Source: Girardia tigrina
Lineage: Eukaryota
Direction: 5' to 3'
NCBI GenBank assembly: GCA_001938485.1
Contig: MQRK01231274.1
Location: 9,981 to 73,980, forward strand
DNA: 64,000 nucleotides
Shown here one piece after another: positions 27,721 to 32,647 of this stretch. Under the pieces are notes generated by a model that saw nothing but the letters and a program-made list of their open reading frames with translations, was not told the DNA's origin and ran no database searches. The translations under genes and the position numbers were made by a program. Position 1 is the stretch's first letter. Each line of letters opens with the position of its first letter.

Positions 27721-28934
27721 ACTAAATTTACAATGATCAATGTATAAGTAATATGTTAAAGCGAAGATAAACATTTGAAACTTCTAATTAATCAACATAA
27801 AAACAGAATGTTTATATAATGTGTCAAATTATTTCGTAGACACAAAATATTGAAATTAAGAGGCACTGTAAAATTAATATTTGATTCGATCTGTTCTACT
27901 ACAGATTACGACTGCAGAGTTTCATTATAGGTAATGCTTTGTTTTTCATTATTTCAATATATTTTTCAGAATTTAGTCGTCCTTTAATAAATTCATATGA
28001 CATCAGACCGTTTGATAACACCATAGCCCAAATCATTAATCCAGGAGATTTCAAAATTTTTTTAATTCACCTCGGACTGCTTCCAATGGTCTTCCAACAA
28101 TAAAAAGAGTCCCAACAATTTGTTGGGACCAGTGAGTTTTTCCTTCACATTAGCCTCGGGCCTATTCATTGCACCGGCACCGAGGCAGGCGAAGGAAAAA
28201 CTCCCTAAATCTAACAAACGAAAAATAAAATATTATAATGATAATTTATAATTAATTAATTAAAAAATAGAAACTTTTAATTGGTTTTGACCCTTGGATC
28301 CTGTCGATTTGAATATTTTCTTGTGAGAATTTGATGGCCTGATTTGCTGACGTGGGTTTGATCGGAATTTTGGTCATCTCCGGGTTGTTTCTATCTGAGG
28401 ACTGTTGACTTAGTGATGGATGATTGAAGGTTGACTGTGAGAATTGTCTGCTTGCTGGTTCTGTGAGTTTTTGTGACAAAAGATTGATATAAATTCATCT
28501 GAATTTGTGCACTTGATCAGACTTTTTTTCTTTGAATAAATTTTATTTAAAGTACCCTTGTTTTGTACTTAGGTAATTTTTGGATTTTATTTCCTTTTTT
28601 TGAAGTTGATGGAGGTTGGGGAGCATCCTCAAGGCTGCCGATCTGTCGATAGATAACAGTAGGGGCTTATAGTTCCTGCCGAGACTATTGACGATCAGGT
28701 AGGGAATATGAACAGGTTGTGAGGTAATTTGATGGCTGCCGATCCGTTAATATATTAACGACAGGTGCTTATAGTGCCTGCCGAGACTATTGACGATCTG
28801 GAAGTTTGAGAAAGTCCTTGCCAAGTTTCATTTCTAGAAGAGAATTCGTTTCTCTCAGCCTCCATCAATTATTTTTTTTGCTTGTTTTCTTTTTAATTTT
28901 TTTATTTGTAATCTACTCATCGTCCATATTTAGC

Positions 28935-29519
28935 ATGAATAGAAAATATAACGAAAGCAAAGAGCAACAAAGAGAACTACTGTTGGAGTTGCAGAAATGG
29001 AAAGGAGAATGTGCCAAGCTGAATGACGAATTGGCGAAGAGGACAACCGAATTTGAGGACTACAGAAATCATTCGGTTCCTCTATCAATTCATAAACCGG
29101 TTGTGGACAAATATTTGTTAGGACAACAAAAAATAAAGGCCTTGCAAAACGAGGTCACCGAGATGAGAATTCAGCAAAATATGTCCAACTACTACAAGAA
29201 GGTGATCGAAAAGGTCTCAGAAGAGCAACCGGAAATAATTCTAGTAACAGCAAGCAAGATTCGATCAAATACGGAAAAGAAACCTCTGATGACGAATCCA
29301 AACATTTATGGGTCAATTATGAAAGAGGATATGGCATCATCTTCCTCTGGGGTGCTCAGCAGATCTCAGAAGCGACGGGAACAGAGGAAGCGAAAGGCTC
29401 AAATGTTTCAACAGGCCAAGAATAAGCTGCAAGCTGTTTTTAAAACCAGTCGTATTGAGGTTGACGTCCAAGATGGAAAGACGGTAATCAGAAATGATAC
29501 CAGTCAAAGAGAGTTCTGA
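28935..29519 (+). CDS. Orphan 194-aa coiled-coil protein with an Arg-rich motif (SRSQKRREQRKRK)
   Basis: Uninterrupted ORF; the ATG sits directly after a polypyrimidine tract and TTTAG|C acceptor. Confidence 0.7.
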   Translation: MNRKYNESKEQQRELLLELQKWKGECAKLNDELAKRTTEFEDYRNHSVPLSIHKPVVDKYLLGQQKIKALQNEVTEMRIQQNMSNYYKKVIEKVSEEQPEIILVTASKIRSNTEKKPLMTNPNIYGSIMKEDMASSSSGVLSRSQKRREQRKRKAQMFQQAKNKLQAVFKTSRIEVDVQDGKTVIRNDTSQREF

Positions 29520-29733
29520 TTTCGATACCTCGCATCAAATTTGTTGTTTTTTTCAAACAAATAATTTCCAAGAGACTATGGAACAACAAGAATGGCTGGA
29601 CTTTAAGTCAAAACTTAAATTCAGAAGGAGAATCGTGACCGCCTACAGTTCCGCTCTATCAAAACTGGTAAAGAGTTTGTCAATCTATCAGATTTGGATG
29701 ATTAGAGACGATGAGTGGATTGCCTTTGATTAG
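29494..29733 (+). CDS. Orphan 79-aa protein overlapping ORF1 by 26 nt
   Basis: Uninterrupted ORF followed by AATAAA at about 29755 and a T-rich downstream element. Confidence 0.5.
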   Translation: MIPVKESSDFDTSHQICCFFQTNNFQETMEQQEWLDFKSKLKFRRRIVTAYSSALSKLVKSLSIYQIWMIRDDEWIAFD

Positions 29734-31275
29734 CATTTTCTTTTGTTATATTTTAATAAAACAATGTCAGCGTATAATTTGTTCATGTTCTTTTAACTTT
29801 AATCTCTGATATGAAAATGATAAACTCATAATATAGTAATCAAATAAAAAAAGACATGTTGATGAAAACATAAGATAATCAGTAATTAAATAGAAGTAGC
29901 ATAAGCCAACTTTCATAGACTTAATATATTTAAATATTATGTAGAACCAAATAGGTACTTCATCAACTTCACTGGCGAGATCAAAGGGCCAGATGGGGTT
30001 GATGGGGTACGATATGGATCTCTAATAAGTGTTAGTTAGAGACACTTTTAGCGGAGAGACATATCTAAATAATATGTTGGGTCAAAATAAACTCAGATGC
30101 TAAAGCATACCATGAAACACATAAATTTAAATTAATAAAATTAAGATAATAGTATAAAATCCAGTACTAATAATATCACACCCAACAAATTTAAAGTGAA
30201 CATTTTCTCATCGGAAAATATGACATTAACCGAATTCATACTTGACAGAAGATGTTCTTTGGCAATGCTTTTTCTTAATGATTTCGTATTATGTGGCAAA
30301 TAAAACTTTCGTTTCACATTTTCATAACTATAATCTACAGACCTTAGGTATCTGCTAACTGTTGCTTTGGATGCTTTTAAGTGAAGCGTCTTAATTAAAT
30401 CCATTGATGAACACTTTTCATTTGCGTCAGTGTCTTTGAAGTTCGGTTATCATATGACGTCCATCATTTTTGGTAATTTTTGGTTTTGGTACTGACTTCT
30501 TCGGTTTGCCTTTATTTTTCACCATGTATTCTATAGTTGATTGTTGAATTTTATTTTTTTTGCTAATTTCTCTTAATGTCATACCCCTTTATCTGTTTTT
30601 TAAAATGCTGCATTTTTAGATTTCGTCATACTAAAAATGTTATAAAAAATTATTTATTTAACTTTAATAATAAAAATTCATACTATATTTTGATATTTTG
30701 TATATATAACTTAAAAAATTATAAATGTATGAAAAAATTTGTTACACTTATTTAAATTATTTGAAAATTTGAATATTGGTAACATTAAATAGTCAAAGTG
30801 ATGTATTTAAACAAATACATATTTTTAAAGGTTTTTATATTTAATGTTTGTTTGTTTAAAATTGGAGCGGTTGTTTGTTGAACGTACGAATATATAATCC
30901 CGATTAGAAAACTTGTCACTGCGAAGTTATAGGTGAAGATCTGTGCTTCGACTGGCAAATCGAGAACCAAGCAAAGACCAGGAAGATTAGCAATTCCATA
31001 AGGCAAGGCCAACACTTGTTTGGACATTAAATCAAAATATTGAACGAAGATCCACCACAGACAATATTTAAGAGGTAGAATTAGAACAATCGAGGCACTT
31101 TTGAATTGTGAATAAATTGGATAAAGTCAACCCAATAAATCTCCATCGGCTCACGTAAGATTGATTATCAAAATTAGAAAGAACTCACTTTGATGAAATT
31201 ATTTCGACATTCGAATTTGAAAAATTGTCAGCTTCGTTTAATCTTAGCAAAATTAAAAGATATTGGTTATATCCC

Positions 31276-32647
31276 TGTGAGGAATATTTGAATGTTTGAT
31301 GTTTTGTGTTTGAAGGTTTTTATATTTAATTGGTTTTTATTTAATTAATTAGTTTTTTATTTAAATGGCATATCCTGATTTTGCCAAAGACTTCATTCTT
31401 GATACAGATGCAAGTTTTGATACGATAGGGGCGGTGTTATCACAGAAAGACGAATGTGGACGAGAAAGGGTGATTGCGTATGGATCACATAAAATGAATA
31501 AACATGAACTAGGTTATTGCATTACAAGGAAAGAACTACTTGCAATTTATTATTTCACACTGCATTTTAAACATTTCTTGTATGGAAAAAGATTTTTGTT
31601 GCGAACAGATCATAAATCTATTACGTTTATGATGACTACAAAGAACCCTATCACACCACAGTTCCAAACATGGATAAATTTTCTGAGTAGTCTTAACATG
31701 AAAATGGAATATCGAAAAGGTGAAAAACATTCAAATGCTGATGCAATGTCAAGAAATTCGTGCGAACTATGCAATCAGTGTCAAACAATGCATGAAGAGA
31801 CCAAGAAAGGAAAGATTAAAACAAGAATACTGGCATTAAGTGAAGAATCAGATGGTTTTAAATGGCAGAAGAATAAGAATGAAATAAAACAAATAATCGA
31901 GGACATAAGTAAAGGTAAAACAAGAAAATGGGCATTAAAGAATGATATCGTCATAAATCAAGATAATAAGTACTGGATCCCAAAGGCAGAACGAGAAAAT
32001 TTTATTGAAGAAATGCACAAATTGTTGTGTCATGCAGGTTGTAAAAAGGTCTATAACTACCTCCGAGATGATTTTGACATGGAAAATATGAGAATTTATA
32101 AAAGACATAGTTCAAAGTTGCATAAATTTTAAATAAATTTTTTATTTTAAATTTGGTATGTTGAAATTGGTTTGTTGAATTTTGTATGCTAAGTTTAGTA
32201 TTTGGAAATGTGTTTCTCGCACCCAGATGGAAAATTGATATTTTGGATGTTCACGATCGATAATTATTCGAATATAATTTACATTTTAAAGTACAGCATA
32301 AGATATTTAAAAACACTAAAAATATTAAATCATTTCAAATTTTCATATTAAAATTTAAATAAAATAAATAGTTTTAACTAAGTTTTGAATTAAATAAATG
32401 TTCCTTTTTTCAATAAAATATTTTTTAAATAAAATTAATACTAAAATTACCAAATTTGAACTGTAAAAATAAAATCTGAAAATAATGAAAAATTTGTTTG
32501 AATAATTGTTTATTAACAAACATTAACAAAAAAGTTATCAATTTAGAACGATGTCGAATTACGAGATTTTTGCTGAGAATTGTCCAAAAGACAATTCTGA
32601 CTGTATTGAAAATAAAAGTTTGAAAACCCATGTTGGTGTTCTTAATA
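31276..32647 (+). mobile_element. Internally deleted Gypsy copy B (LTR stub, RNase H/integrase start, 3' LTR)
   Basis: LTR start TGTGAGGAATA; ORF 31365-32132 (LDTDASFDTIGAVLSQ, RKELLAI, RTDHK, NADAMSR, H....H.G); LTR about 32146-32647 ending GGTGTTCTTAATA. Confidence 0.92.

What the first reader, a model, noticed from the sequence alone, without database searches (positions are those of the whole stretch)
28121..30187. 2-kb TG...CA insertion that is a self-contained expression cassette for two intact orphan proteins
Seen: 7-bp terminal inverted repeat and AATT TSD; excision restores the Tc1 frame. This is the signature of a retroviral-type integrase, yet the insert has no gag, pol or transposase and no long direct repeats. 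It contains a TATA-like TATAAA (about 28488), splice donors (28573, 28699, 28724) and a strong acceptor (28933) immediately before the ATG of a 194-aa ORF. That ORF has a coiled coil and an Arg-rich SRSQKRREQRKRK. An overlapping 79-aa ORF and AATAAA (about 29755) follow. Both ORFs are intact while neighbouring TE ORFs are broken. Established: LTR-encoded genes occur in complex retroviruses (MMTV sag, HIV nef) but are unusual in retrotransposons. Inference: a protein-coding giant solo LTR, or an undescribed integrase-mobilised gene cassette.
Basis: partly seen in the sequence, partly recalled or inferred. Interest (0 to 1): 0.82.

Follow-up and report, generated by a model that had tools for sequence, protein, structure and literature searches.

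The report
Retrotransposon end-repeat carrying a spliced gene
This 2-kb insert is a decayed, left-behind end repeat (solo LTR) of a large virus-like jumping gene whose end repeat itself holds a spliced, evolutionarily conserved protein gene, which likely acts as a switch that lets the element's unspliced full-length RNA be made and exported.

Summary
The ends (TGTTGGG…CCCAACA), AATT duplication and Tc1 host site are real. The insert is a solo LTR, not a free cassette. 17 of 21 full copies have their own 4-bp duplication. 21 LTR ends abut a tRNA-Lys primer site, and other copies follow the integrase of an env-bearing, Burro-like gypsy element. The 'two intact ORFs' are wrong: they are pieces of one 259-aa gene, frameshifted twice here. 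That gene is real at family level. Variants shared by five or more copies give pN/pS 0.13 against 0.80 for private ones, and three LTR families keep it at 37-50% identity with saturated synonymous sites. Three genomic copies, in two clades, lack exactly the intron 28573-28933, which shows splicing. Two families share U3 and U5 but differ from the TATA box to the poly(A) site, so the gene likely fills the R region. The intron holds a conserved RNA hairpin. The protein has a coiled coil, an Arg-rich helix and a SUMO-binding-like tail, with no known homologue or fold. Best guess: a Rev/CERV-like splice-export switch (about 0.45). No RNA reads could be laid.

The parts
28117..28120 (+). left target-site duplication AATT
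   Evidence: 17 of 21 full copies have their own 4-bp duplication
28121..30187 (+). solo LTR (2067 bp, TGTTGGG...CCCAACA) of a Burro-like env-bearing Ty3/gypsy element, LTR type A
28121..28510 (+). predicted U3 (promoter part); about 5% different between LTR types A and B
   Evidence: left change point LTR 365-393; boundary inferred
28488..28493 (+). TATA box, at the matching place in types A, B and C
   Evidence: function inferred
28515..28572 (+). short non-coding exon 1 (start inferred from the TATA box; end shown)
   Evidence: joined to 28934 in three intron-less genomic copies
28573..28933 (+). 361-nt GT-AG intron
   Evidence: lost exactly in L112, L178 and L179
28633..28703 (+). conserved intron hairpin, copy 1 (two helices around a purine-rich internal loop)
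   Evidence: fold z -3.0; kept in types A, B, C
28733..28806 (+). conserved intron hairpin, copy 2
   Evidence: fold z -3.4
28935..29705 (+). the family's single 259-codon LTR gene (coiled coil, Arg-rich helix, SIM-like C-terminus); frameshifted twice in this copy
29358..29396 (+). Arg/Lys-rich motif; KRREQRKRK is invariant in all 7 rows of the A/B/C alignment
29755..29760 (+). poly(A) signal AATAAA; the A/B exchange boundary lies about 16-37 nt downstream (29776-29797)
   Evidence: cleavage site inferred
29778..30187 (+). predicted U5; 6-7% different between types A and B; abuts the primer site in 5' LTR copies
30188..30191 (+). right target-site duplication AATT
30192..30582 (-). 5' part of the interrupted, independently decayed Tc1-like transposase
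27850..28116 (-). 3' part of the Tc1-like transposase (own stops)

Best explanation
The insert is a decayed solo LTR of a roughly 18-kb (estimated) env-bearing, Burro-like Ty3/gypsy retrotransposon whose LTR carries one spliced, conserved 259-aa gene, likely filling the R region and likely encoding a Rev/Rex/CERV-like switch protein. SHOWN: LTR identity and internal genes; one ORF under purifying selection; splicing of 28573-28933; breakage of this copy. INFERRED (about 0.9): the solo state arose by LTR-LTR recombination after integrase inserted a full element into a Tc1 copy. INFERRED (about 0.75): transcription starts just after the TATA box, and splicing defines a terminal exon that is polyadenylated near 29777, giving a ~0.9-kb LTR-only mRNA from any LTR. 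INFERRED (about 0.45): the protein oligomerises through its coiled coil and binds the intron hairpins with its Arg-rich helix. It would then favour unspliced RNA that reads through the 5' poly(A) site and leaves the nucleus as gag-env-pol/genomic RNA. The SIM-like tail would tie it to SUMO-marked nuclear sites.
For: LTR: 21 LTR-end/primer-site junctions against 0 in the reversed-pattern control; the site matches host tRNA-Lys(CUU); gag, env and pol lie on one contig (C40812); 3' LTRs follow integrase (type A in C231843 and C228438, B in C186489 and C238385, C in C247769). Selection: in 30 copies picked by DNA, private pN/pS is 0.80 (23 stops) and variants shared by 5 or more copies give 0.13 (0 stops), Fisher p 2e-5; four of the five other frames give 1.4-1.9 and the mirror frame 0.20; between types pS is 0.74-0.86 with dN 0.38-0.58. 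Splicing: L112, L179 and L178 lack LTR 453-813 exactly; L112 and L179 keep both ends and their own duplications; L178 falls in another clade. R model: types A and B differ 5-7% outside and 34-42% inside a block running from LTR 365-393 to 1656-1677, in 3 of 3 gap-free B copies; the TATA-exon-donor-hairpin-acceptor-ATG-AATAAA layout recurs in type C, whose U3 and U5 gave no blastn match to A. Switch model: the hairpin is the best-kept non-coding element, 97.9% of cells paired, and it lies only in unspliced RNA; the basic motif is invariant; a gypsy precedent exists in CERV (PMC10309623).
Against: No RNA reads were laid, so start, end and level of the mRNA are not shown. Intron loss alone cannot tell R from U3. 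The junction has 2-4 nt of microhomology, so DNA-level deletion is possible. No intron-less type-B copy was found (one pattern). The shared-versus-private contrast is not significant in B (p 0.43) or C (p 0.14). Hairpin covariation is weak: only 2 of 22 pairs change on both sides, and 374 of 500 shuffles do as well on that measure. No export-signal motif is shared by the three types. There is no sequence or fold link to Rev, Rex or CERV (model pTM 0.22). No full-length element lies on one contig, and none of the five 3' LTRs has a polypurine tract.
Confidence: 0.5

Rival explanations
1. Same LTR gene, but the protein is a transcription or silencing regulator (Tat/Tas/Naf-like, or an antagonist of SUMO-dependent silencing). 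The hairpin would be a packaging/dimer signal or a TAR-like site, and solo LTRs could supply the protein in trans as copy-number control.
For: The C-termini FVNLSDLDD, FIVLSDSEN and FVVSSDSDD resemble the Daxx SIM IIVLSDSD (PMC8616421). A coiled coil plus a basic helix also fits a DNA-binding or nuclear-localised regulator. The MMTV LTR ORF gives Naf, a repressor (PMC9412291). Packaging signals usually lie in the first intron (own knowledge).
Against: The SIM core is imperfect in types A and C, and that review warns that many consensus matches are not real SIMs. SUMO binding was not tested. The basic region lies C-terminal to the coiled coil, unlike a bZIP (own knowledge).
Confidence: 0.3
2. 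The gene lies in U3, like MMTV sag. It is read from a subgenomic RNA ending in the 3' LTR, R is short, and solo LTRs are not expression units.
For: The intron could equally be spliced at the 3' end of genomic RNA and give intron-less LTRs. Type C has a TATA-like run downstream of its AATAAA. LTR ORFs known in print lie in U3.
Against: The A/B exchange block starts just after the upstream TATA box and ends just after AATAAA. The donor lies inside the LTR, about 80 nt after that TATA box, in all three types.
Confidence: 0.2
3. An independent integrase-mobilised gene cassette, moving without a parent element.
For: Most copies seen are solitary; first-look candidates were 3199 for the LTR and 179 for a 1-kb pol stretch (not copy numbers).
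Against: The same sequence serves as 5' LTR and as 3' LTR of a gag-env-pol element. An LTR-only RNA has no primer site and could not rebuild both ends. High solo:full ratios are normal (own knowledge).
Confidence: 0.02

Closest known systems
Burro / GYPSM1 giant gypsy-like retrotransposons of planarians (read in PMC6431247, section 7; Grohme 2018 not held)
   Same: Gag with CCHC knuckles, long accessory stretch with a coiled coil, mononegaviral-type fusion env placed between gag and pol in frame with protease, an insert between protease and RT, long LTRs, many copies, AT-rich genome
   Different: Internal region about 14 kb (estimate) against up to 25 kb; no BIR, BCL2, MATH, ankyrin or SUMO-like Pfam hit in the pieces scanned; the section read mentions no gene inside the LTR; the RT could not be placed against Burro
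CERV of the C. elegans gypsy element Cer1 (PMC10309623, abstract and passages)
   Same: Novel nuclear protein from a spliced mRNA of a gypsy element, with a zipper and a basic motif; needed for export of unspliced genomic RNA (the role proposed here)
   Different: [quoted passage not shown]
MMTV LTR ORF (Sag/Naf) and Rem (PMC9412291, passages); HIV Rev/RRE, HTLV Rex/RxRE, HERV-K Rec (recalled, no call)
   Same: ORF within an LTR (sag); Arg-rich regulator from a spliced RNA with a structured response element (Rev class)
   Different: sag lies in U3; Rev-class genes lie outside the LTR. Here promoter, intron, hairpins, ORF and poly(A) signal all lie within one LTR, in a retrotransposon of an invertebrate-type genome

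Membership tests
Ty3/gypsy LTR retrotransposon (solo LTR) | TG...CA termini with 4-6-bp target-site duplication | tested here: met
   17 of 21 full type-A copies have a 4-bp duplication
Ty3/gypsy LTR retrotransposon (solo LTR) | tRNA primer-binding site after the 5' LTR | tested here: met
   21 junctions, control 0; host tRNA-Lys(CUU)
Ty3/gypsy LTR retrotransposon (solo LTR) | gag, then PR-RT-RH-IN order, followed by the 3' LTR | tested here: met
   Pfam on pieces; LTR after integrase in 5 contigs with an intact LTR start
Ty3/gypsy LTR retrotransposon (solo LTR) | both LTRs around a complete internal region on one contig | tested here: inconclusive
   none complete among the contigs fetched; the assembly is fragmented and copies are deleted
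Ty3/gypsy LTR retrotransposon (solo LTR) | polypurine tract before the 3' LTR | tested here: not met
   0 of 5; last 20 nt are 40-50% purine with a C-run; pattern search 0. A usual feature, not counted as overriding the domain evidence
Burro | mononegaviral-type env between gag and pol, in frame with protease | tested here: met
   PF24664 E 3e-40 in a 665-aa frame that runs into the protease motif; order gag-env-pol on C40812
Burro | dUTPase-like domain between protease and RT | tested here: inconclusive
   a ~170-aa insert is there, but Pfam gives no dUTPase hit; likeness by eye only
Burro | giant size (internal region up to 25 kb, total over 30 kb) | tested here: not met
   about 14 kb internal by landmarks in separate contigs; deleted parts could be missed
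Burro | BIR, BCL2, MATH, ankyrin, SUMO-like accessory domains | tested here: not met
   no such hit in the 21 + 12 pieces scanned; pieces under about 95 aa were not scanned
Burro | RT falls in the Burro clade; dugesiid host | not testable with these tools
   no Burro sequence held; homologue search of the protease-RT piece gave nothing at E 1e-20; host not determined
Rev/Rex/CERV-type export factor | encoded by a spliced RNA of the element | tested here: met
   three intron-less genomic copies
Rev/Rex/CERV-type export factor | Arg-rich RNA-binding helix and oligomerisation region | tested here: inconclusive
   invariant basic motif in a predicted helix, long N-terminal helices; binding untested
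Rev/Rex/CERV-type export factor | structured response element present only in unspliced RNA | tested here: inconclusive
   conserved intron hairpin, weak covariation, no Rfam family at threshold
Rev/Rex/CERV-type export factor | leucine-rich export signal; needed for export of genomic RNA | not testable with these tools
   pattern matches differ between types; needs experiments

The most novel reading that the evidence does not exclude
The R region of this LTR is a complete, exchangeable gene with its own intron, response element and poly(A) site. Every solo LTR was born as a working transcription unit for the element's own splice/export switch, and whole R 'alleles' (only about 45% identical in protein) are swapped between lineages when reverse transcriptase copies the short LTR-only mRNA. 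Hundreds to thousands of solo LTRs could then regulate full-length elements in trans.
Probability: 0.3. Interest if true: 0.85.

Novelty: new variant of a known kind. Interest (0 to 1): 0.68.

Why it matters
Solo LTRs are normally treated as non-coding promoter remnants. Here the LTR is itself a spliced gene kept under selection across deeply split lineages, so recombination leaves whole gene copies behind. If it is a Rev-like switch, it is a very compact complex-retrovirus circuit (regulator and target inside one repeat) in an env-bearing invertebrate retrotransposon. It offers a direct test of how a long-R element avoids polyadenylating in its 5' LTR. The intron-less genomic copies act as fossil cDNAs. 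The window copy itself is ordinary decaying DNA.

Tried and rejected
RNA: 15 of 18 listed runs hold part of the stretch (share at most 0.30; 2 on record as RNA), but no reads were laid, so this is no evidence. A scan of metagenome contigs found 591 pattern hits and none confirmed. Database homologues sit on 0.6-3-kb contigs of unknown kind and were not used as transcript evidence.

Homology and fold: Pfam gave nothing credible for the LTR protein. Sequence searches gave 5 and 7 proteins; those examined belong to these LTR types or are close variants. The Atlas top score was 0.85 with low recognition. The AlphaFold model is helices without a packed fold (pLDDT 58, pTM 0.22), and Foldseek gave no hit at E <= 0.001 in PDB or BFVD. 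The 'SacC' name on P0001 has no Pfam support and is treated as a mislabel.

False leads: a 1760-aa open frame over a type-B hit is an N-gap artefact. The gag-pol 8 kb after L012 belongs to another element. The often-open +2 frame of 104-122 codons has no start codon in most copies, and the shifted frames show no constraint. Donors 28699 and 28724 gave no intron-less copies. Rfam gave only sub-threshold matches. A search for a host SUMO returned ubiquitin domains of other elements, so no complex was predicted. No earlier finding of this scan matched.

Rows dropped: one duplicate type-C copy; L088 (wrong ORF picked, its rows ignored); type-B copies with Ns or missing ends (3 of 15 used, against 10 of 21 type-A copies). 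The 13 extra A copies and all B and C copies were found by protein search and so lean towards unbroken ORFs; only the 30 DNA-picked copies are free of that bias.

Full report
OBSERVATION. The 2067-bp insert at 28121-30187 starts TGTTGGG, ends CCCAACA and is flanked by AATT on both sides. It sits in a Tc1-like transposase on the minus strand. That frame is in register across the site but has stops of its own. The TATA-like box, three GT sites, the acceptor, both ORFs and AATAAA are at the stated coordinates.

IT IS AN LTR. The own genome (1.43 Gb) gave 3199 first-look candidates, of which 40 were scored, at 87-94% identity apart from the window copy itself. Of 21 full-length copies, 17 have a perfect 4-bp duplication of their own. 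One of the four exceptions (L012) is followed by a primer-binding site. A pattern search found 21 such LTR/primer junctions and 0 for the reversed control. The site is complementary to host tRNA-Lys(CUU) genes. A ~3.1-kb leader leads to gag (Retrotrans_gag and zf-CCHC hits). C40812 carries gag, a coiled stretch, about 800-1000 residues without a Pfam family, env, protease, RT, RNase H and integrase in that order. In C180126 a Monjiviricetes-type fusion protein (E 3e-40) runs into the protease motif in one 665-aa frame. The LTR follows integrase in five contigs with an intact LTR start. By landmarks in separate contigs the internal region is about 14 kb and the element about 18 kb (hand estimate); no complete copy lay on one contig. 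None of the five 3' LTRs has a polypurine tract. The window copy is therefore a solo LTR; its origin by LTR-LTR recombination is inferred from established knowledge.

ONE GENE, BROKEN HERE. Across copies the region is a single 259-codon ORF. It is uninterrupted in 6 of the 30 copies picked by DNA likeness. The window copy has two frameshifting deletions, near 29514 and 29617, and an in-frame loss near 29670. The '194 + 79 aa' pair is thus decay.

SELECTION. Column-wise counts on the 30 copies gave pN/pS 0.80 for private variants (284 non-synonymous, 23 stops, 97 synonymous), 0.49 for variants in two copies, 0.35 in three to four, and 0.13 in five or more (9, 0, 17; Fisher p 2e-5). Adding 13 copies found by protein search gave 0.16. 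For shared variants the other frames give 1.4-1.9, except the mirror frame at 0.20. Copies thus decay near-neutrally after insertion, while the replicating lineages kept the protein. Two further LTR types carry the gene: B, and C (1.9 kb, own 4-bp duplications, pol about 79% identical). Between types, protein identity is 37-50%, pS 0.74-0.86 and dN 0.38-0.58 (L088 rows ignored). Within B and C the shared-versus-private contrast was not significant (p 0.43 and 0.14; 15 and 14 copies).

SPLICING. L112 matched the LTR as 1-452 plus 810-2067. Its junction joins the base before GT 28573 to the base after AG 28933. A junction search found two more copies. L112 and L179 keep TG...CA ends and their own duplications; L178 is truncated. 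In a tree of 21 full copies plus these three, L112 and L179 group with L021 (support 1.0), and L178 lies in the clade of the window copy (0.89-0.92). That implies at least two independent losses at one GT-AG junction, whereas the other internal deletions seen fall at different places. Microhomology of 2-4 nt leaves a DNA-deletion route open. Donors 28699 and 28724 and a type-B junction gave 0 matches. No reads were laid.

WHERE IN THE LTR. Types A and B follow closely related pol sequences (89-96% to one query). They differ 5-7% outside and 34-42% inside a block whose ends fall at LTR 365-393 and 1656-1677, in 3 of 3 gap-free B copies. That is just after the TATA box (368) and just after AATAAA (1635). 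Type C, whose U3 and U5 gave no blastn match to A, repeats the layout: TATA-like box, short AT-rich exon, GT donor, hairpin, AG within about 11 nt of an ATG, ORF, AATAAA. I infer that the gene fills R and gives a ~0.9-kb LTR-only mRNA (about 0.75). The U3 reading stays open (about 0.2).

MECHANISM. The intron holds a ~65-nt hairpin, twice in A and B and once in C. It folds with z -3.0 and -3.4, and 97.9% of cells pair across 22 copies, mostly through G-U-tolerated changes. Only 2 of 22 pairs change on both sides, and Rfam names nothing. The protein is predicted as long N-terminal helices, a basic helix (143-171) and a C-terminal helix, with no packed fold. KRREQRKRK is invariant. The tail resembles the Daxx SIM IIVLSDSD (PMC8616421 passages). 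Sequence, Atlas and fold searches found nothing known. A regulator made from the spliced RNA, with a conserved structure found only in the unspliced RNA, is the logic of Rev/RRE and Rex/RxRE (recalled) and of CERV in Cer1 (PMC10309623, abstract and passages). I commit to this at about 0.45. The rival is a transcription or silencing regulator, at about 0.3.

COMPARISON AND NOVELTY. The element works like Burro: env in frame between gag and pol was described as the first such case (PMC6431247, section 7 read whole). It is not filed as a Burro, because the size and accessory-domain tests were not met and the RT clade and host were not tested. A triclad flatworm host is only a guess from this likeness and the AT-rich genome. 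An ORF in an LTR is known for MMTV U3 (PMC9412291 passages). PMC8532177 and PMC11410931 (passages) mention Burro without an LTR gene in what I saw. Searches (listings only) showed no retrotransposon with a complete spliced gene inside its LTR. Grohme 2018 and its supplements were not held and may bear on this.

VERDICT. The window copy is a dead solo LTR. The family-level feature is real and unusual: a new variant of a known kind, interest 0.68.

Noticed in passing
60 nt before the 3' LTR in G000 C228438, C231843, C186489, C238385, C247769: No polypurine tract. A conserved pair of small inverted repeats with a C-run abuts the LTR in types A, B and C; how the plus strand is primed is unexplained.
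   Followed up: partly
L031-L051: The primer site lies 8-9 nt from the 5' LTR end, further than usual (usual distance recalled).
   Followed up: no
C223149, C232276 and C118803 just after the primer site; C228438 (L149:1332-1724): LTR-primer-site copies are followed by what look like host-gene fragments (nodal-modulator-like and laminin-like; names by eye, no call): possible gene capture by non-autonomous derivatives.
   Followed up: no
L170-L175: Ubiquitin-like domains fused to gag-like or coiled-coil frames of other retroelements (BEL/Pao-like by eye), often behind an Hsp90-like fragment; 2210 first-look candidates for PF11976, 150 scored.
   Followed up: no
L153:1-1858 and L152:9704-10000 (C231843): A proteasome AAA-ATPase subunit gene in long open frames lies just upstream of a truncated env-pol-LTR copy.
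   Followed up: no
window 28127-28210: An inverted repeat at the very start of the LTR; weak Rfam miRNA-precursor match (E 0.023, far below threshold).
   Followed up: no
leader in C123169, C180126, C241823: A 60-bp tandem array (2-5 copies) about 1 kb before gag in the ~3.1-kb leader.
   Followed up: partly
window 28111-28120: The target sequence left of the insert ends like the element's own right end for 6 nt; other copies do not show this, so probably chance.
   Followed up: partly
window 31365-32129: RNase H and integrase zinc-finger fragment of a gypsy element, apparently of another family.
   Followed up: no
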